A stretch of DNA of 56,812 bases, taken from NCBI GenBank assembly GCA_044869275.1, contig JBIOXB010000092.1:1-56812 (forward strand), written 5' to 3'. Origin of the DNA: a bacterium. GTDB taxonomy: Bacteria > Zhuqueibacterota > Zhuqueibacteria > Zhuqueibacterales > Zhuqueibacteraceae. The notes under the pieces are model-generated. The model made no database searches. It was not told where the DNA came from and worked only from the letters and a program-made list of their open reading frames with translations. This document shows positions 1 to 8,373 of this stretch, piece by piece. Every line of letters starts with the position of its first letter. Within the stretch, counting starts at the first letter, position 1. The position numbers and the translations under genes were made by a program.

Positions 1-15
1 CCAACGGACTCACTA

Positions 16-21
16 TGTCAA
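16..21 (-). promoter_or_regulatory. -35 box TTGACA in the element right end (half of the circle-junction promoter)
   Basis: Plus TGTCAA at 16-21 is a perfect TTGACA on minus, pointing out of the element. Confidence 0.75.
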
Positions 22-40
22 GTTAAAAATCAGCTTTTTT

Positions 41-1270
41 TTAATTTTGGTTTTGATTGGCGATGAGATGTTTGGCCATTTGTGCCAAGAAGAGATTTTC
101 ATCATAACAAGTTCTGTTCTGCCACATGGCGAAGAGAATGCGCAAATGCAAGTTTGCTAAACAGCGCAGGGCGTGGCTGTGGCTTTTACCGCGATTGCGG
201 TGTTTTTGATAGTAAGCCTTCGCCCACGTGGCTTGAGCGAGCGAGCTAAACGCAAGATGCTGCATCACATCGCGATAGAATTTGTTGCAGGCGCGGCGAT
301 AGTAGATGATTTTGAAGTCGTTCCCACTTTTTTCAGTGACCGGGCAGGTTCCGGCTAAACCCTGCAGCTCGCTGACTGCAGCATAGCGGGCGCGATTATC
401 ACCGAAGAGCGCCAGCAAGCGTGCGGCGGTCAGATATGAGGCACCCGGATAGCTGAGAAAAATCTGGCCATCGGGATGCTGAGTTACCAGTTGCTGTAAA
501 CGGGTGGCATAAGTTTCAAGATCGGTTGCTAATGCCAGCAATTGTTTGGCACACAACAACGCTTTGAGCTGTTTGACGCGAATAAGCACGCCGGGAACAG
601 GCAGATGCTTTTGGTGAAGCAACTGATAAATGTTGACGATGGTGTTGTGATTGCGCAAATGATGTTCTTTGAAAAACGCGGCTAATTGTTGTTGCGACAG
701 TTCACGAGCAGAATCAAAATCCGGATACGCCTGCAGAAAGGCCAGGGCATTAGCGCAGGCGACATTCGCGAAAAAGTCGATATACTCCGGATAGTATTCC
801 TTCAACGTCGAACGCAGACTATTACTCAACGCCACTTGCCACGCAGTGGCGTCATGATGCGCTTGTGCCAAAAGACGAATTTCGCGCACGGCGGGCGAGC
901 CAAAGTCCACTGGCCGCCAACAGGCCGTATCCGTGCGCAACACGTCGGCGATGACGAAGGCATCGAAGTCGTCATCGCGCGCGCCACTGGAACGATAGCG
1001 CTTGCGAAAGCTTTTCATGGAACCAGGAAACATCGCCCAGACCGCATAGCCGGAGTCGAGCAGAAAATCCACGACCAACTGATTCGGCGTTTCGATACCG
1101 ATTTTAAAGGCCGCGAGATCTTCCGAGCATTGGCGGAGTTGAGAGCGAAGCTGTTCAAAACCGGCAACATTATTTTTGATGGTGAGCTTTCCTACGATAA
1201 GCGTGCCGTGTTCGTCTAAAATTTTGACGTCATGTTTTTGATCAGCCCAATCAATCCCGACATAGTACAA
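41..1270 (-). CDS. IS110 family transposase/recombinase
   Basis: 409 aa; N-terminal RuvC-like DEDD motifs (GIDWADQKH, GIETP, RDDDFDA); C-terminal domain with GTCPVTEKSG serine motif; GGAG 6 nt before the TTG start. Confidence 0.95.
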   Translation of the reverse strand: MYYVGIDWADQKHDVKILDEHGTLIVGKLTIKNNVAGFEQLRSQLRQCSEDLAAFKIGIETPNQLVVDFLLDSGYAVWAMFPGSMKSFRKRYRSSGARDDDFDAFVIADVLRTDTACWRPVDFGSPAVREIRLLAQAHHDATAWQVALSNSLRSTLKEYYPEYIDFFANVACANALAFLQAYPDFDSARELSQQQLAAFFKEHHLRNHNTIVNIYQLLHQKHLPVPGVLIRVKQLKALLCAKQLLALATDLETYATRLQQLVTQHPDGQIFLSYPGASYLTAARLLALFGDNRARYAAVSELQGLAGTCPVTEKSGNDFKIIYYRRACNKFYRDVMQHLAFSSLAQATWAKAYYQKHRNRGKSHSHALRCLANLHLRILFAMWQNRTCYDENLFLAQMAKHLIANQNQN

Positions 1271-1292
1271 GATAGGCTCCCGGTGATTTAAT

Positions 1293-1448
1293 CTCTGAAA
1301 GAAGGAGAAGCCGACTTAATCCTATATTGGCCCTCGAAGGGCGGCTCACTATGGAAGTTTGCGCTTCTTGTGCGAAACCTTGAGGCACTCCGTTGGTGGT
1401 GGTCGAGCCACGGGATTAAAATGGCCTTCAAAGTTCCGTCCTTCAGAG
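1293..1448 (-). ncRNA. putative bridge RNA (target-binding and donor-binding loops)
   Basis: Terminal stem 1293-1300/1441-1448; two internal loops, each around a 4-bp hairpin with a YUCGA loop (1399-1411, 1330-1342); flanking segments match 1-8 (8/8), 2631-2639 (7/9), 9-17 (9/9) and 2626-2633 (8/8). Confidence 0.8.
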
Positions 1449-1454
1449 CAAGTT

Positions 1455-1871
1455 TCAAGCTTCGTTGTCGTGGCGGAGATGTTGCAGAATGGTTTTAAGA
1501 CTTTGAAAATCTTGCGTTGCGAAACGATGGAACTGGCCGCGTGCAGTTACTGGCACCGGCGCTGGTTCGGGTAAAGACAACACCTGAAAAATGCCATTTT
1601 GATAAGCGATGAACGAACACTCACAGAGATGATTGCGGGCGCGCACATAGTCGTCGACTTCCATTTTGAGAAATTGACAAATGCGCTCGTAATCGTAAAA
1701 ACTCACGCCGTTGCGATCGGCGACGGTGATCAGAAAATAATACAACAGCAATTCTTCTTGCGCGAGCCGATGGAGAAAACCGCGATGCAAGAAGTTGTGA
1801 TCAATCCAGCCGAAGGTGCATTGGCGAATGTTACGAATACGCTCAGGACAAATGGGGCTTGCGCTACGCAT
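1455..1871 (-). CDS. accessory winged-helix protein, replication-initiator-like; hypothetical
   Basis: 138 aa; LLYYFLITVADRNGVSFYDYERICQFLKM..DYVRARNHL..CSFI fits the HTH_36/phage replication-initiator N-terminal pattern by eye. Confidence 0.65.
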   Translation of the reverse strand: MRSASPICPERIRNIRQCTFGWIDHNFLHRGFLHRLAQEELLLYYFLITVADRNGVSFYDYERICQFLKMEVDDYVRARNHLCECSFIAYQNGIFQVLSLPEPAPVPVTARGQFHRFATQDFQSLKTILQHLRHDNEA

Positions 1872-1956
1872 CGTGCGTGCTCCGATCAGAAGGATGCAAG
1901 TGATGACCTTGGTCGTGACAGCCTCAAGATAAGAACAAAACGTGCGTCAAATCAAT

Positions 1957-2142
1957 CGCGTCCATTTTTACAATCACGCCGCAGCTGCGCCCGGAAACGC
2001 GTTATCGCCTTGAAAAACTTGAAGTGCGACCAACAACGCGTCCATTTTTACAATCTTGGCGGAGGCCTCCAGTGAACAGGGTGTCAACAAATAAGTGCCT
2101 GATTTGACAGGGTGATAGGAGAACGCGTCCATTTTTACAATC
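1957..2142 (+). repeat. three identical 19-bp direct repeats CGCGTCCATTTTTACAATC
   Basis: Copies at 1957-1975, 2037-2055 and 2124-2142; the last two extend to 23 bp identity. Confidence 0.95.
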
Positions 2143-2465
2143 TTTTCGCCAGCCACGGACGTGTTCTGGAGTCGGCGCTGGTAGTTGCGAAGGCGCTGCT
2201 GTTCGCGATTTTTCTGAACGTACTCGGGATGGTGATCGCGATATTCTTTCTGATAGCGGTGCAGGGGGCGCTTACGCCGCCATAGTTTCAGCGCTGTTCT
2301 TTGATGGGCGCGATAGCAGGGGTGCGCCGACAAGTTTTCTCTTTGCCAGAGACGTTTGCGTTCACGTTGACACGCCTCGTCACTGCAAAACTTTTGTTCG
2401 CCTTTAAGGCGCGGGTTCGCTGGCTTTTCCAAGCGGCAGTTTTGGCACCGAATGGTCAGTAGCAT
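1974..2465 (-). CDS. accessory Zn-finger, Arg/Lys-rich hypothetical protein
   Basis: ATG at 2465 after GGAGAG; CQNC...FCSDEAC motif, basic helical region, KIVKMDA twice. Confidence 0.7.
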   Translation of the reverse strand: MLLTIRCQNCRLEKPANPRLKGEQKFCSDEACQRERKRLWQRENLSAHPCYRAHQRTALKLWRRKRPLHRYQKEYRDHHPEYVQKNREQQRLRNYQRRLQNTSVAGEKIVKMDAFSYHPVKSGTYLLTPCSLEASAKIVKMDALLVALQVFQGDNAFPGAAAA

Positions 2466-2617
2466 CGAGGCTCTCTCCAAAATATGAGAGCTCAATCAAA
2501 GCTTCTGATGCTGAAGCGCAAGACCAACCCGAAACAAACGGATCAACAACAAAGCACGGTTTTCAAAGAACAAGAATAACAGACAAGTTAGATTAATTTC
2601 CCTGAATGACCTGGATC

Positions 2618-2626
2618 AAGATAACA
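2618..2626 (-). promoter_or_regulatory. extended -10 box TGnTATCTT in the element left end
   Basis: Plus AAGATAACA is TGTTATCTT on minus; lies exactly 17 nt from TTGACA after end-joining through the TCC core. Confidence 0.65.
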
Positions 2627-2755
2627 TATAGGATCGAAAGACGACCAACGGACTCAAAATAGAATCCGTTAGGCAGTTTTTGTTTTGAAACTACCCCAAA
2701 GGGGTCCTGTTTTCAGCTCGATGAACAATCCCGTGTCGCATTTATCAGATTGAAT

Positions 2756-3019
2756 ATGCACGAATACTCTCTCATCAACGATCTGATGCGCAAGCTGGGG
2801 ATCATTGCCAGCATGCATCACACCCAGAAAATTCTCGGGGTAAAGATCAAGCTGGGCGCGTGGGCACACATTTCCCCGGATCATTTGCGCGAGCACTTTG
2901 TGCAGGCCGCGCGCGGCACTGCGGCGGAAAGCGCGCGGCTGGAGATCGAAGTGTTGACTGACACCTTCGATCGCCATGCGCAGGAAATCATTTTGGACAG
3001 CGTCGAAATCGAGGACTAA
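2756..3019 (+). CDS. hypA: hydrogenase maturation nickel metallochaperone HypA (short, Cys-free)
   Basis: MHEYSL N-terminus and EIILDSVEIE C-terminus; directly upstream of hypF. Confidence 0.8.
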   Translation: MHEYSLINDLMRKLGIIASMHHTQKILGVKIKLGAWAHISPDHLREHFVQAARGTAAESARLEIEVLTDTFDRHAQEIILDSVEIED

Positions 3020-3022
3020 GTC

Positions 3023-5509
3023 ATGCCCGCAGCTCTTCTTCACGCACGCCCTGCGGGGAGGCGTGAAGGGCCAATCCTGCGTCTGCGCATTGTAATCCGC
3101 GGCGCCGTGCAGGGCGTGGGATTTCGCCCTTTTGTTCACCGGCTGGCGCGCAGTTTGGGCTTGACGGGCTGGGTTTGCAATTCCACACAGGGCGTTTTCA
3201 TCGAAGTCGAAGGCAGCCAAACTCAACTGGACACGCTGCTGTTGCGCGTGACCACGGAACTGCCGGCGCGCGCATTCATTCAGAGTTTGGAATCATCCTT
3301 TCTCGATCCCCAAGGCTACACTTCTTTCGAGATTCGCGAAAGTCTCCCCGCGGGAGATATCGCGGCGCTCATCCTTCCCGATATTGCCACCTGCTCTGAT
3401 TGTCTCGAAGAAATAATCGATCCGGCCAATCGCCGTTATCAGTATCCCTTCACCAACTGTACGCACTGTGGCCCGCGCTTCAGCATCATCACCGCCCTGC
3501 CCTATGACCGTTGCCACACCACGATGAGAGATTTCGTGATGTGCGCATCATGCCGGGCGGAATACGGCGATCCCGATGATCGCCGCTTCCACGCGCAGCC
3601 CAATGCCTGCCCGGCGTGCGGGCCGCATCTCGAATTGTGGAATCACGAGGGCTTGGTGCTGGCAGCGCAACATGAAGCTTTGCTCGCCGCGGCCGAGGCG
3701 CTTTTGCGAGGGCAGATCGTCGCCATGAAAGGCCTGGGCGGATTTCAGTTGCTGGCCGACGCGCGCAATGAGGAAACGGTGCAGCGACTGCGCCGGCGCA
3801 AACATCGCGAAGAGAAGCCCTTGGCGTTGATGTATCCGAACCTCGACCTGGCGCGTGCGCATTGTGAAATCTCGGATCAGGAAAAACGCCTGCTGCTTTC
3901 GCCCGAATCCCCCGTCATTCTTCTGCCTCGCAAAAAATGTGATTCACGGTCCGCAAGCCGTCATTCAAATTGCGAGATCGCGCCGGCTGTCGCGCCGCAT
4001 AATCCTTATTTTGGTGTCATGCTGCCTTACACACCATTGCATCATCTGCTGATGGCTGAGTTGAGAATTCCGCTCGTGGCCACCAGCGGCAATCTCTCCG
4101 ATGAGCCAATTTGTATAGACGAACGTGAGGCGTTGCCACGGCTTGGCGGCATTGCAGATCTGTTTCTCGTGCACAATCGCCCGATTGCGCGGCATGTGGA
4201 TGACTCCATCGTGCGCCTGATGATGGGGCGCGAGTTGGTGTTGCGGCGAGCGCGCGGCTATGCACCCCTGCCCGTCAATCTGCAACAACCAGTGCCTGTG
4301 ATTTTAGCTGTGGGCGCGCATAAGAAAAATACCATTGCATTCGCCGCCGGCGGCCAAGTCTTTGCCAGCCAGCATATCGGTGATTTGGAAACCGCGCAAG
4401 CTTTCGCGGCTTTTCGCTGCGTGATCGCTGATTTCGAACGGCTTTATGAGATTCGCCCCGTTGCCATCGCCTGCGACCAGCATCCTGAATATCTTTCCAG
4501 CAAGTTTGCGCGGCAGTACGAGAATGCGGGGCCGGCAGGCCGTTTGTCCAGCGCACAGAATGGCGCATCCAAAAAGATGAGGGTTATCGAAATCCAGCAT
4601 CACTTTGCTCATGTGGCCGCATGCATGGCCGAAAACCAGCTCGAAGGGCCGGTGTTGGGGGTCTCATGGGATGGCACCGGCTACGGGCTTGATGGCAGCA
4701 TTTGGGGCGGAGAATTCTTGCGGGCAACGGATACAAGTTTCGAACGCGTGGCGCATGTGCGCACCTTTCGCCTTCCCGGCGGGGAACGAGCCATCAAAGA
4801 ACCGCGCCGTGCCGCGCTCGGCTTGCTCTATGAGCTCTTCGGCGATGCGGTTTTTGCCCATCAGGAATGGGCGCCGGTGCGCGCTTTTTCCGCACCGGAG
4901 CTCGCCGTCATGCGCAAAATGCTCGAGCACAAACTCAATACCCCGCTCACTTCCAGCGCTGGACGGCTTTTCGACGTGATTGCATCTGTGATTGGATTGC
5001 GACAACAAACGAAGTTTGAAGGGCAGGCAGCAATGGAGCTGGAATTTGCATTGGAAGGATGCGAAACGGAAGCAAAATACCCGGTGCAGATTACGAACGG
5101 CCGAAACCGGATTGCGGGTGCGATGACACGCCAGCACGATGCCGAAATGCAAAATCAAAAGCCCGCCACCATCATTGATTGGGCACCCATGGTGCAGCTA
5201 ATTCTGCACGAAGTGCAAGACGAAATTCCGGCCGCGCAGATTTCGGCAAAGTTCCACAATACACTTGTCGAGGCGATCGTGCAAGTGGCGCAATATGCCG
5301 GCGAGGAACGAATCGTGCTGAGCGGTGGTTGTTTTCAGAATAAATATCTGACCGAGCGTGCGATCCGCCGTTTGCGCCAAGAGGGCTTCCGCCCCTACTG
5401 GCACCAACGCTTTCCGCCGAACGACGGCGGGATTGCGCTGGGTCAGGCGATCGCAGCCGCGCGGGGAGAGCAAAAACAAAAAGCAAAAAGCAAAGAGCAA
5501 AGCGCATAG
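3023..5509 (+). CDS. hypF: carbamoyltransferase HypF
   Basis: Acylphosphatase GAVQGVGFRPFV, Zn fingers CTHCGPR and HAQPNACPACGP, QHHFAH, PPNDGGIALGQ. Confidence 0.97.
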   Translation: MPAALLHARPAGRREGPILRLRIVIRGAVQGVGFRPFVHRLARSLGLTGWVCNSTQGVFIEVEGSQTQLDTLLLRVTTELPARAFIQSLESSFLDPQGYTSFEIRESLPAGDIAALILPDIATCSDCLEEIIDPANRRYQYPFTNCTHCGPRFSIITALPYDRCHTTMRDFVMCASCRAEYGDPDDRRFHAQPNACPACGPHLELWNHEGLVLAAQHEALLAAAEALLRGQIVAMKGLGGFQLLADARNEETVQRLRRRKHREEKPLALMYPNLDLARAHCEISDQEKRLLLSPESPVILLPRKKCDSRSASRHSNCEIAPAVAPHNPYFGVMLPYTPLHHLLMAELRIPLVATSGNLSDEPICIDEREALPRLGGIADLFLVHNRPIARHVDDSIVRLMMGRELVLRRARGYAPLPVNLQQPVPVILAVGAHKKNTIAFAAGGQVFASQHIGDLETAQAFAAFRCVIADFERLYEIRPVAIACDQHPEYLSSKFARQYENAGPAGRLSSAQNGASKKMRVIEIQHHFAHVAACMAENQLEGPVLGVSWDGTGYGLDGSIWGGEFLRATDTSFERVAHVRTFRLPGGERAIKEPRRAALGLLYELFGDAVFAHQEWAPVRAFSAPELAVMRKMLEHKLNTPLTSSAGRLFDVIASVIGLRQQTKFEGQAAMELEFALEGCETEAKYPVQITNGRNRIAGAMTRQHDAEMQNQKPATIIDWAPMVQLILHEVQDEIPAAQISAKFHNTLVEAIVQVAQYAGEERIVLSGGCFQNKYLTERAIRRLRQEGFRPYWHQRFPPNDGGIALGQAIAAARGEQKQKAKSKEQSA

Positions 5510-5578
5510 GGCATTTGTGCTTTGTGTTTTGTGCTTTGCCCTTGGGTCCTGTAACGTTGTTTGCATCGAGTGAATGCC

Positions 5579-5833
5579 ATGTGTCTCGCAGTACCAGGAA
5601 AGCTGACCAGCATCAGCGGCGAGGAACCGCTGGTGCGCACGGGAAAAGTGAGCTTCGGCGGCATCATCAAAGAAGTCAACCTGGCTTGTGTTCCCGAGGC
5701 GAAAATCGGAGATTATGTGCTCGTGCACGTCGGATTTGCCCTCGGCACTCTTGACGAAGCGGAAGCGCGCCGTGTGTTCGACTATTTGGAGCAAATGGGC
5801 GAGCTGAAGGAAATGGAAGCTGGTCCCACATGA
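5579..5833 (+). CDS. hypC: hydrogenase assembly chaperone HypC
   Basis: MCLAVPG start, [11 protein letters not shown]. Confidence 0.97.
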
Positions 5834-6921
5834 AGTTTGTCGACGAATACCGCGACCCCGAATCCGCGCGGCGCTACGCCGAAGCGATCGCCCGTTTGAC
5901 GACCAAGCCATGGACGATCATGGAAATCTGCGGCGGACAGACGCATGCCATCGTCAGATTCGGGGTGGACCAGCTTTTGCCTAAGGAAATCACCTTGGTG
6001 CACGGGCCCGGATGCCCGGTATGCGTCACGCCGGTGGAGCTCATCGACAAAGCTATTACCCTTGCCTCGCAGCCCGAAGTTATCTTCTGTTCCTTTGGAG
6101 ACATGCTGCGCGTGCCGGGAACGGAACAGGACCTGCTCACGGTCAAAGCCTGCGGGGGTGACGTTCGCATCTTGTATTCGCCCCTGGAAGCGCTGAGTAT
6201 CGCGCGTGCTTCTCCAAACAAACAGGTGGTCTTTTTTGCCGTGGGCTTCGAGACGACGGCGCCGGCGAATGCGATGGCGGTCTATCAAGCGCATGCGCAG
6301 GGGATCAAGAATCTTTCCATGTTGGTATCACACGTGCTCGTGCCGCCGGCCATGACCATGCTGCTCTCGTCACCGCACAATCGCGTGCAAGGCTTCCTGG
6401 CGGCCGGCCACGTTTGCACGGTCATGGGCTACAGCGAGTACGAACCGATGGCAAAAAAATATCACATCCCCATTGTCGTCACCGGCTTTGAGCCGCTGGA
6501 TATTCTGCAAGGAGTGTACATGTGTGTCAAGCAATTGGAAGAAGGCCGAGCGGCAGTTGAAAACCAGTACTCTCGCTCCGTGCGCCGGCAGGGCAATGAA
6601 ACGGCGCAACGGCTCATACGCGAAGTGTTTCGCGTTGTGCCCCGCACCTGGCGCGGTCTCGGCGAGATTCAACATAGCGGATTGGCCTTGCGTAAGAAAT
6701 ACTCAGACTACGATGCCGAGCTGCACTGGGGTCTCACGCATCAAAACGTGGAAGAATCTCCGGATTGCCTCAGCGGCCTCGTTTTGCAGGGTATAAAAAA
6801 GCCTCACGAGTGCCCTGCCTTTGGCGGGCGATGTACGCCGGAACATCCGCTGGGTGCAACCATGGTGTCGTCGGAAGGCGCATGCGCAGCTTATCATCGC
6901 TACAGAAGGACTAAAGCGTAA
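5830..6921 (+). CDS. hypD: hydrogenase formation protein HypD
   Basis: [31 protein letters not shown]. Confidence 0.97.
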
Positions 6922-7311
6922 AGCAAAACCGAACGAGCCGGAACCCAAAAGAATTTGTCGCCCACGAAAGCGGAATTCCCACGGAAATGAAAAGTTTTTT
7001 TCGTGGCAGTTCCATTTCCGTGGGAGAAAGTTTTTGCTTTTTTTTTACAGAGAGTGCACTTGTAACTGACTACACCAGTTTTCTGTTGAGCTGAAAACAG
7101 AAGCCACTGCGTGGCCGCTTCTTTTTCGACAGGATTTACAAGGCAAACAAGATTGATCGTCATCTTGTAAATCTTGTTTATCCTGTCAAAAAGTCTTCAG
7201 AATTTTATTCTGAGCTTATGTCGCTAAGCGCGTAATGCGCAATGTTTGACGCCCAATGTCGCTTTACGCGTTACGTTTCACGCTCTACTTGTCGAACCTA
7301 GGAAACTGATC

Positions 7312-8373
7312 ATGGCAGACAAAACCTCTCTCGACCACGGGTTGTCATGCCCGATTCCAATCGCACGCTATCCGAACGTGCTGCTGGCTCACGGCGGCGG
7401 TGGCACGCTCATGCATCAGCTTATTGAGCAGATGTTCGTCCCGGCCTTCCAGAGTTCCTTTCCGCAAATACGGCACGACGGAGCAGTCTTCACTCTCAAT
7501 GGGGCGAAACTGGCGTTCACGACCGATTCCTATGTCGTGCGCCCGCTCTTTTTCCCCGGTGGTGACATTGGCAGCCTGGCGGTCAACGGCACGGTGAATG
7601 ATTTGGCCATGTGCGGCGCGCGGCCGCTTTTTCTCAGCGCCGGCTTCATTATCGAAGAAGGCCTGCCCATGGAAACTCTGTGGCGCGTGGTGCAGTCCAT
7701 GCGGCTCGCCGCACAAGCTGCCGGCGTTCAGATTGTCACCGGCGACACCAAAGTTGTGGATAAAGGCAAAGGCGATGGCATTTTCATCAACACCGCTGGC
7801 GTGGGAATAAGGGAACACGACTTGAACATCGCACCGGCAAGCATCCGGCCTGGCGACGCCATATTGCTCAACGGCGATCTTGGGCGGCATGGCATTGCGA
7901 TCATGGCGGTGCGCGAAGGCTTGCGCTTCCAGAGCGCGATCACGAGCGATGCTGCGCCGCTCGCCGGGCTGGTGCTGGCATTGCTGCAGGCGGGGATCGA
8001 AGTGCACTGCTTGCGCGATCTCACGCGCGGTGGATTGGCGAGCGCGTTGAATGAGATCGCCGAGACCGCGCATCTACACCTCAATCTCGAGGAAAGCGCC
8101 ATTCCCATTGGCGAAGAGGTGCGGGGTGCGTGTGAAATCCTCGGGCTGGATCCACTTTACGCGGCCAACGAAGGAAGATTCGTCGCTTTTGTTGATCAAG
8201 CGGACGTCGCGCGTGTACTCGCGCTCATGCGCGCACAACCAATTGGCGCTGCCGCCTGCCGCATCGGCACGGTGACGGCGGGTTCCCCTGGCCTAGTCAC
8301 GATGAAAAGCACGATTGGCGCGCAACGCATTGTGGACATGTTGTGCGGGGAACAATTGCCCCGTATTTGTTGA
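7312..8373 (+). CDS. hypE: hydrogenase expression/formation protein HypE
   Basis: AHGGGG, GDTKVV, DLTRGG, C-terminal LPRIC. Confidence 0.97.

What the first reader, a model, noticed from the sequence alone, without database searches (positions are those of the whole stretch)
1455..2144. Iteron-like 19-bp triple repeat next to a replication-initiator-like wHTH gene inside the element
Seen: CGCGTCCATTTTTACAATC occurs three times (1957, 2037, 2124; periods 80 and 87 bp). Two copies encode KIVKMDA, but the third lies almost entirely beyond the ORF stop codon and is still identical, which points to DNA-level rather than protein-level selection. The next gene resembles phage/plasmid replication-initiator winged helices. 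Inference (speculative): binding sites for an accessory protein, acting either as a mini-origin that lets the excised circle replicate or as an operator controlling bridge RNA and recombinase expression.
Basis: partly seen in the sequence, partly recalled or inferred. Interest (0 to 1): 0.8.

Follow-up and report, generated by a model that had tools for sequence, protein, structure and literature searches.

The report
Portable operator cassette on mobile elements
The three repeats look like protein-binding sites beside a promoter in a small two-gene cassette that rides at the front of three unrelated kinds of jumping DNA, here an RNA-guided one, and probably switches on the jumping machinery rather than starting replication.

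Summary
The triple 19-mer is real and conserved as DNA: 92–95% same-codon use in the repeat against 45–47% elsewhere in the gene. The last copy is out of frame in 36 of 46 homologues. It lies in a 2.6-kb IS110 element: gene A (four conserved Cys, basic helices), gene B (winged helix), bridge RNA (about 1290–1454, guides match target and donor), recombinase. The same A–repeat–B cassette also precedes IS21 istAB and tyrosine-recombinase pairs or trios. Its repeat sequence changes from lineage to lineage. The last copy ends one base before a weak −35, with a −10 at 17–18 nt (36 of 46; inner copies 6 of 101). This promoter would drive B, the bridge RNA and the recombinase. The repeat follows A, not B: B proteins 81–82% identical sit beside unrelated repeats, and 0 of 17 loci without A have repeats. 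Best reading: an operator array read by A, in class II activator position, fed by the circle-junction promoter. An iteron origin is less likely (wide spacing, no AT-rich region, no DnaA box, B does not covary). No binding is shown. No description was found in the papers searched.

The parts
6..7 (-). Right-end core dinucleotide (CC on the element strand)
   Evidence: Two different contigs join the window here. In homologues with other flanks the shared core is CC.
8..40 (-). Right end: left-donor sequence and the TTGACA -35 box (21..16) of the circle-junction promoter
   Evidence: The TTGACATAGT(G/A)AGT end was found in 11 of the 14 close IS110 loci listed.
41..1270 (-). IS110 bridge recombinase, 409 aa
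   Evidence: PF01548 E 3e-29, PF02371 E 2e-8; NF033542 above cut-off.
1290..1454 (-). Predicted bridge RNA, ends approximate. LTG 1421..1413, RTG about 1395..1390, LDG 1353..1345, RDG 1327..1321
   Evidence: Two stems with internal loops holding the guides (z only -1.5). Guides match each element's own flanks: LTG 5.5 of 7 own against 2.2 other, RTG 3.1 of 4 against 1.3, n=11 each. No Rfam match.
1455..1871 (-). Gene B: 138-aa winged-helix protein (HTH_36) with a C-terminal helix; function not established
   Evidence: 1105 representatives at E<=0.001.
1926..1955 (-). Predicted internal sigma-70 promoter P_B: -35 TTGATT (1955..1950), 18 nt, -10 TATCTT (1931..1926)
   Evidence: Position conserved after the last copy in 36 of 46 homologues against 6 of 101 inner copies; coordinates. 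Below the threshold of the plain consensus scan.
1957..1975 (-). Repeat copy 3, promoter-proximal operator candidate, ending 1 nt before the -35
2037..2055 (-). Repeat copy 2, inside gene A
2124..2142 (-). Repeat copy 1, inside gene A
1974..2465 (-). Gene A: 163 aa. Residues 1-106 hold four conserved Cys (probable zinc site) and basic helices (27 K+R against 10 D+E); the repeat-coded tail is modelled with low confidence. Candidate reader of the repeats
   Evidence: (pLDDT 90+ for 1-100, 36-69 after). No meaningful Pfam or fold match.
2466..2630 (-). Left end: right-donor sequence and extended -10 (TG 2626-2625, TATCTT 2623..2618) of the junction promoter; non-coding leader of A
   Evidence: in the circle the -35 and -10 are 17 nt apart.
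2631..2632 (-). Left-end core dinucleotide
   Evidence: Contig C22 shares the end and then diverges.
2633..2672 (.). Remainder of the REP-like palindromic repeat into which the element inserted
   Evidence: 29 one-strand matches to the hairpin pattern in the genome; the 25 printed include empty versions of the target.

Best explanation
The repeats are an operator array in a portable regulatory cassette (A, repeats, promoter P_B, B) at the left end of a mobile element. Shown by sequence analysis: the element ends, the junction promoter geometry, the bridge RNA guides, DNA-level conservation of the repeats, a conserved promoter one base after the last copy, and the same cassette in front of IS110, IS21 and tyrosine-recombinase genes. 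Inferred: (1) excision builds the junction promoter, which transcribes A; (2) A binds the repeats cooperatively, helped by roughly 10-bp phasing of the copies; (3) the promoter-proximal copy, at about -55 to -37, acts as a class II activator site and turns on B, the bridge RNA and the recombinase, giving a burst from the circle for re-integration; (4) the in-gene copies set a threshold or limit A's own transcription. B is a separate accessory of the element, not the sequence-specific reader.
For: Same codon at same amino acid: 211/229 in the repeat against 802/1694 outside (8 VKMD-type genes, GC3 0.32-0.63); 1251/1322 against 4421/9847 (20 AKxD-type genes). Last copy out of frame in 36/46, with a stop codon inside the motif in the peptide frame in 7/46. 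-10-like hexamer at 17/18 nt in 36/46 last copies against 6/101 inner copies; T.G at the -35 in 44/46 against 10/101; mean -35 match only 2.9 of 6. Repeats in 56/64 loci with A, 0/17 without A, 0/57 downstream controls. Nearest neighbour has the same repeat type for A's N-terminal part in 43/43 and for B in 37/43; window B is 81-82% identical to B of L005 and L011, whose A is 25% identical and whose repeat is unrelated. Last gaps cluster at 48-50, 58-61, 68-70 and 79-80 nt. A site just upstream of a weak -35 is the SetCD class II arrangement (PMC4344509, passages).
Against: No binding, transcription start or expression data. A and the repeats are one piece of DNA, so their covariation is expected from linkage alone; the informative part is only the discordance with B. 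A has no known DNA-binding fold. The geometry does not separate activation from repression, and the window's own -35 is fairly good (4 of 6). 12 of 58 typed loci were dropped from the promoter count because the motif pattern missed their last copy. Repeat types and patterns were defined by me from the same data, and related loci are not independent. 8 of 64 A-bearing loci fall below the repeat threshold, and L015 shows only a single promoter-proximal site.
Confidence: 0.52

Rival explanations
1. Same operator array, opposite sign: A (or A with B) represses P_B and its own gene, limiting recombinase and bridge RNA once a circle has formed and acting as copy-number feedback across multiple copies.
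For: The last copy touches the -35; multiple phased sites suit looping repression; in-gene copies could act as a roadblock (inference).
Against: The site lies upstream of the -35, not over the -10 or start site, and the -35 is degenerate in most homologues (mean 2.9 of 6), which is more typical of activator-dependent promoters.
Confidence: 0.22
2. One reading: B is a minimal initiator that binds the repeats and lets the excised circle replicate, as TnGBS circles do.
For: Three identical 19-mers; B is HTH_36 with weak hits to phage replication-initiator and DnaD-like families (E 0.012-0.044 for B, down to 4e-7 for one homologue). The longest structural alignments include DnaD-N, RepA_N and DnaB (Z 5.3-5.5, 79-92 residues, rmsd 4.7-6.5). 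The cassette is portable across recombinase types, as a replication module would be.
Against: B with an almost identical helix-turn-helix faces unrelated repeats and persists in 17 loci without repeats. Minimum spacing is 48 nt, 80-87 here. AT is 0.42-0.58 around the repeats and no DnaA box with <=1 mismatch lies in 1455-2634. B has only the winged helix and one further helix. The fold scores are tied with sigma-4 and other regulators.
Confidence: 0.12
3. The repeats are an architectural enhancer: A, perhaps with B, bends or scaffolds DNA near the left end to promote excision or integration, independent of transcription.
For: The cassette lies near one end in IS110 and IS21 elements and the sites are phased.
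Against: It does not explain the fixed -35/-10 geometry after the last copy; one enhancer would have to serve three unrelated chemistries.
Confidence: 0.08
4. The repeat is a peptide repeat of protein A and the third copy is a remnant or a small coupled ORF.
For: Two copies are in frame; the third frame reads VIVKMDA for 17 codons from a GTG that overlaps the stop.
Against: Synonymous sites are fixed. The encoded peptides differ freely (IVKMDA, EKKEQL, DIQDEL, EIRNQL, ALQED). The third frame has stops inside the motif in 7/46 and no conserved length. The tail is modelled with low confidence.
Confidence: 0.02

Closest known systems
IS110-group bridge recombinase elements, e.g. IS621 (PMC11208160, passages seen)
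   Same: DEDD recombinase, 2-nt core, promoter rebuilt across the circle junction, bridge RNA upstream of the recombinase with LTG, RTG, LDG and RDG. Targets a REP-like repeat (REP targeting by IS621 is recalled, not from a call).
   Different: About 1.2 kb with two genes, an operator array and a second promoter lies between the junction promoter and the bridge RNA, so the junction promoter reads first into gene A.
Large cargo-carrying IS110 elements (bioRxiv 10.64898/2026.08.14.744561; abstract, outline and passages seen)
   Same: IS110 elements larger than the minimal form that carry extra genes.
   Different: That cargo is described as mostly plasmid-derived and adaptive. Here it is a fixed two-gene cassette shared with IS21 and tyrosine-recombinase elements. 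The main text has 0 occurrences of 'helix-turn-helix', 'iteron' or 'direct repeat'; its supplements were not visible.
SetCD / AcaCD (FlhDC-like) activators of SXT/R391 ICEs and IncC plasmids (PMC4344509, passages seen)
   Same: Element-encoded control through a 19-bp site immediately upstream of a weak -35, switching on mobility genes.
   Different: No Pfam sign of homology. Here the sites are a direct-repeat array inside the candidate regulator's own gene, on IS-sized elements, and the sequence changes between lineages.
Iteron origins (plasmid Rep, lambda O; features recalled) and replicating transposon circles such as TnGBS (PMC3942029, passages seen)
   Same: 17-22-bp direct repeats next to an initiator-like winged-helix gene; a circular intermediate.
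   Different: Wide spacing, no AT-rich unwinding region or DnaA box found, the winged-helix protein does not covary with the repeats, and it is much shorter than the initiator profiles it weakly matches.
IS21 family and RIT (recombinase in trio) elements
   Same: The cassette lies inside IS21 units and directly upstream of three PF00589 genes in 9 loci.
   Different: As I recall them, these families are defined by istA/istB or the recombinase trio alone. The two leader genes are annotated only as hypothetical proteins.

Membership tests
IS110-group bridge recombinase element | DEDD N-terminal domain plus Transposase_20 domain | tested here: met
IS110-group bridge recombinase element | 2-nt core at both ends; mobile as a unit | tested here: met
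   Core at 6-7 and 2631-2632; two left and two right flanks in the same genome.
IS110-group bridge recombinase element | Bridge RNA upstream of the recombinase with guides matching target and donor | tested here: met
   The LDG matches 9 nt of the donor but not cleanly through the core.
IS110-group bridge recombinase element | Sigma-70 promoter rebuilt across the circle junction | tested here: met
   TTGACA, 17 nt, TATCTT with extended TG, by sequence only.
IS110-group bridge recombinase element | Bridge RNA encoded in the non-coding left end, directly after the junction promoter (IS621 layout) | tested here: not met
   Genes A and B (about 1.2 kb) intervene.
IS110-group bridge recombinase element | Circular intermediate and bridge RNA expression | not testable with these tools
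   Only contigs of DNA runs were available.
Iteron replication origin | Three or more 17-22-bp direct repeats | tested here: met
Iteron replication origin | Closely packed repeats (feature recalled) | tested here: not met
   Spacing 80 and 87 here; minimum 48 among 101 gaps.
Iteron replication origin | Adjacent AT-rich unwinding element and DnaA boxes (feature recalled) | tested here: not met
   AT 0.42-0.58 in 50-nt bins over 1851-2150; no box with <=1 mismatch in 1455-2634.
Iteron replication origin | Cognate initiator covaries with the repeat | tested here: not met
   B at 81-82% identity beside unrelated repeats; same repeat type with B at 39-44%.
Iteron replication origin | B belongs to a replication-initiator family | tested here: inconclusive
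   HTH_36 above cut-off; PHROG E 0.012-0.044; Z 5.3-5.5 among ties.
Iteron replication origin | Autonomous replication | not testable with these tools
   Needs a bench test.
Class II activator-dependent promoter (SetCD-like) | Binding site immediately upstream of a weak -35 with a correctly spaced -10 | tested here: met
   36 of 46 against 6 of 101; mean -35 match 2.9 of 6.
Class II activator-dependent promoter (SetCD-like) | Regulator homologous to FlhC/FlhD, SetC/SetD or AcaC/AcaD | tested here: inconclusive
   No such Pfam family among 55 A and 58 B proteins at E<=0.01; absence from a profile scan does not exclude it.
Class II activator-dependent promoter (SetCD-like) | Protein binds the site and raises transcription | not testable with these tools
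   Needs EMSA and a reporter.

The most novel reading that the evidence does not exclude
An undescribed plug-in life-cycle switch for IS-sized elements: a new family of Cys4/basic-helix activators that carry their own lineage-specific operator array inside their gene, sense the excised circle through the junction promoter, and license re-integration for whichever recombinase lies downstream (RNA-guided DEDD, DDE/AAA+ or tyrosine trio). In its boldest form, B then couples the circle to host replication.
Probability: 0.4. Interest if true: 0.85.

Novelty: new variant of a known kind. Interest (0 to 1): 0.72.

Why it matters
IS110, IS21 and RIT elements are usually treated as recombinase-only units. 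A shared, swappable two-gene cassette with its own operator and promoter would show a control layer common to three unrelated recombination chemistries. For bridge recombinases it would be a natural case of protein-controlled expression of bridge RNA and recombinase. It also offers a set of small regulator-operator pairs with at least seven repeat types, which could be orthogonal, and a clear experiment to identify a new DNA-binding family.

Tried and rejected
Peptide-repeat explanation: rejected. Antisense -10 inside the repeat (TACAAT, flagged): not shared by the other repeat types seen, so set aside. A-B complex prediction: no answer, score 0.00, which is neither support nor evidence against. 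Fold searches of A found only long-helix matches, best Z 4.9; the N-terminal part was not folded alone. No solved-structure sequence match for B; no Foldseek match at E<=0.001; no phage record with B; ESM Atlas gave only hypothetical clusters. No fused form of A among proteins of 390-2000 aa, which is weak evidence and does not cover a direct A-B fusion of about 300 aa. No Rfam match. Sequencing runs: no RNA holder listed. Laying 4 of 9 runs (contigs only) showed no junction joint, and in X1, possibly the source sample, the element contig had depth 19.4 against 11.2-15.5 for its four flanking contigs; contigs drop rare forms and depth is not copy number, so this is not counted as evidence. The tree of B is the quick version with many open forks and was used only descriptively. 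Earlier scan findings: none returned. Paper searches for a prior description listed nothing that describes this cassette, judged from titles and abstract starts.

Full report
Observation. The 19-mer occurs exactly at 1957, 2037 and 2124; shuffles give a mean of 0.03 matches at up to 3 mismatches, and there is no other exact copy in the genome. On the minus strand the order is gene A (ATG 2465 to 1974, 163 aa), gene B (1871 to 1455, HTH_36) and an IS110 recombinase (1270 to 41). Two copies encode KIVKMDA in A. The third overlaps A's stop codon by two bases and lies in another frame.

The element. Two contigs join the window's first 127 bases, and another contig shares the other end and then diverges; run X1 has the same stretch as one 2635-bp contig. 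So there are at least two collapsed copies of a unit bounded by a CC core at 6-7 and 2631-2632. Joining the ends places TTGACA 17 nt from TATCTT with an extended TG, the junction promoter described for IS621 (PMC11208160, passages); here it points into A. The spacer between B and the recombinase folds into two stems with internal loops (z -1.5, not significant alone) that hold the four guides. In close relatives the target guides match their own flanks better than other elements' flanks: LTG 5.5 against 2.2 of 7, RTG 3.1 against 1.3 of 4, 11 loci each of 14 examined, including rows where my pattern picked the guide wrongly. The target is a REP-like palindrome family with 29 one-strand pattern matches.

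The cassette is portable. After removing duplicates and loci with a truncated B or under 330 nt upstream, 81 remained, including the window: 22 IS110, 24 IS21, 19 tyrosine recombinase, 16 unclassified. Nine loci have three PF00589 genes in a row (RIT-like) and four have two long ones. A and B lie inside the IS21 unit: five copies in G090 share sequence from about 840 nt upstream of B with different flanks, and two Caballeronia copies share 3427 bp. L095 and L107 come from unpublished genomes (G158, G162) and are rows in these counts; L091 (G162) was dropped as a duplicate. No key claim rests on them alone.

The repeats are DNA sites. A three-copy array occurs in 56 of 64 loci with an A homologue, 0 of 17 without, and 0 of 57 downstream control regions. 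The sequence differs by lineage and so does the peptide: IVKMDA, IAKMDA, EKKEQL, DIQDEL, EIQTEL, EIRNQL, ALQED. Where the amino acid is the same, the codon is the same at 211 of 229 comparisons in the repeat against 802 of 1694 elsewhere in A (8 genes, GC3 0.32-0.63), and 1251 of 1322 against 4421 of 9847 in a second group of 20 genes. The last copy is out of frame with the previous one in 36 of 46 and has a stop inside the motif in its peptide frame in 7 of 46. The repeat-coded tail of A is modelled at pLDDT 36-69 against 90 or more for residues 1-100.

A promoter follows the last copy. Of 58 loci given a repeat type, 46 had a last copy caught by my patterns; 12 were dropped. In those 46 (17 IS21, 14 IS110, 8 tyrosine recombinase, 7 unclassified) a hexamer starts one base after the repeat with T at position 1 in 46 of 46 and T.G in 44 of 46, and a -10-like hexamer follows at 17 or 18 nt in 36 of 46. 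After inner copies the counts are 10 and 6 of 101. In the window this is TTGATT (1955-1950), 18 nt, TATCTT (1931-1926). The -35 is weak on average (2.9 of 6). The last gaps cluster at 48-50, 58-61, 68-70 and 79-80 nt; over 34 distinct gaps the phase strength is 0.56 near a 10-bp period, reached by none of 5000 random sets, though the gaps are not independent.

Which protein reads the repeats. The nearest neighbour by A's N-terminal part has the same repeat type in 43 of 43 loci, by B in 37 of 43. The window's B is 81-82% identical to B of L005 and L011, with an almost identical helix-turn-helix, yet their A is 25% identical and their repeat unrelated. The window's repeat type also occurs with B at 39-44% identity, including an IS21 element. 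B is kept without A or repeats in 17 loci: behind a different Cys-rich protein in seven, behind a sigma-factor-like gene in L006, and after IstB-like genes in at least four (judged by eye, part of the output was cut). Linkage alone would tie the repeats to A, so this argues against B more than it proves A. B is a winged helix whose longest structural alignments include DnaD-N, RepA_N and DnaB, but at Z 5.3-5.5 among ties, with weak PHROG hits to replication initiators. A has four conserved cysteines, basic helices and no known family or fold.

Mechanism. Most likely (0.52): excision builds the junction promoter, A is made and binds the phased repeats, and the last site, in class II position as for SetCD (PMC4344509, passages), activates transcription of B, the bridge RNA and the recombinase. 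Repression from the same sites is the main rival (0.22). A mini-origin like the replicating TnGBS circles (PMC3942029, passages) is not excluded (0.12), but spacing, base composition, missing DnaA boxes and B's independence speak against it. Circles are established for IS110; for RIT elements the one paper read could not determine circular intermediates (PMC5737581, passages), and IS21 junctions are recalled, so the circle-sensing step is argued only for the IS110 form. All binding and transcription steps are inferred.

Novelty. The element is an IS110-group member with an atypical layout. Eight paper searches listed nothing that describes this cassette. The preprint on large IS110 elements (10.64898/2026.08.14.744561; abstract, outline and passages) did not mention it in the passages seen, and its supplements were closed. 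The library lacks most subscription papers, and ISfinder, TnPedia and the original RIT paper were not checked, so a prior mention is possible. Verdict: real, selected as DNA, probably an operator and promoter cassette shared by three unrelated element classes; new variant of a known kind; interest 0.72.

Noticed in passing
window 2633-2672 and genome-wide: REP-like palindromic repeat family built on CCAACGGA...TCCGTTGG, 29 one-strand pattern matches; it is the target of this IS110.
   Followed up: partly
window 2750-8373; G000:C177:1-900: Genes that look like hydrogenase maturation genes hypA, hypF, hypC, hypD and hypE follow the element, and a hydrogenase-maturation-protease-like gene lies on one joining contig. 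Names are by eye, not from a family scan.
   Followed up: no
L006:225-984: In a close IS110 relative a sigma-factor-like gene and a small partner replace A and the repeats while B and the bridge RNA are kept.
   Followed up: partly
L067, L070, L072, L074, L080, L082, L086, upstream of B: A second Cys-rich leader protein without repeats, ending in FPRRGYG about 20-27 nt before B, mostly on tyrosine-recombinase elements.
   Followed up: partly
L015:3240-3680; L016:361-786: A variants whose repeat-coded tail is replaced by a helical-looking tail; L015 keeps one site next to the same -35/-10 arrangement.
   Followed up: partly
L034, L039, L055, L073: B lies downstream of an IstB-like gene instead of upstream of the transposase (by eye); in L047 it precedes a ParB-like gene.
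   Followed up: no
P0215, P0236: P0215 joins IS110-like fragments to a B domain (possibly a deletion product); P0236 has two B domains in tandem.
   Followed up: no
L099, L109, L112 (G090); L017: The downstream transposase is split into several frames in these copies, which may be decay or sequencing error.
   Followed up: no
window 1353-1343: The left donor guide matches 9 nt of the donor but not cleanly through the CC core, unlike the IS621 description.
   Followed up: no
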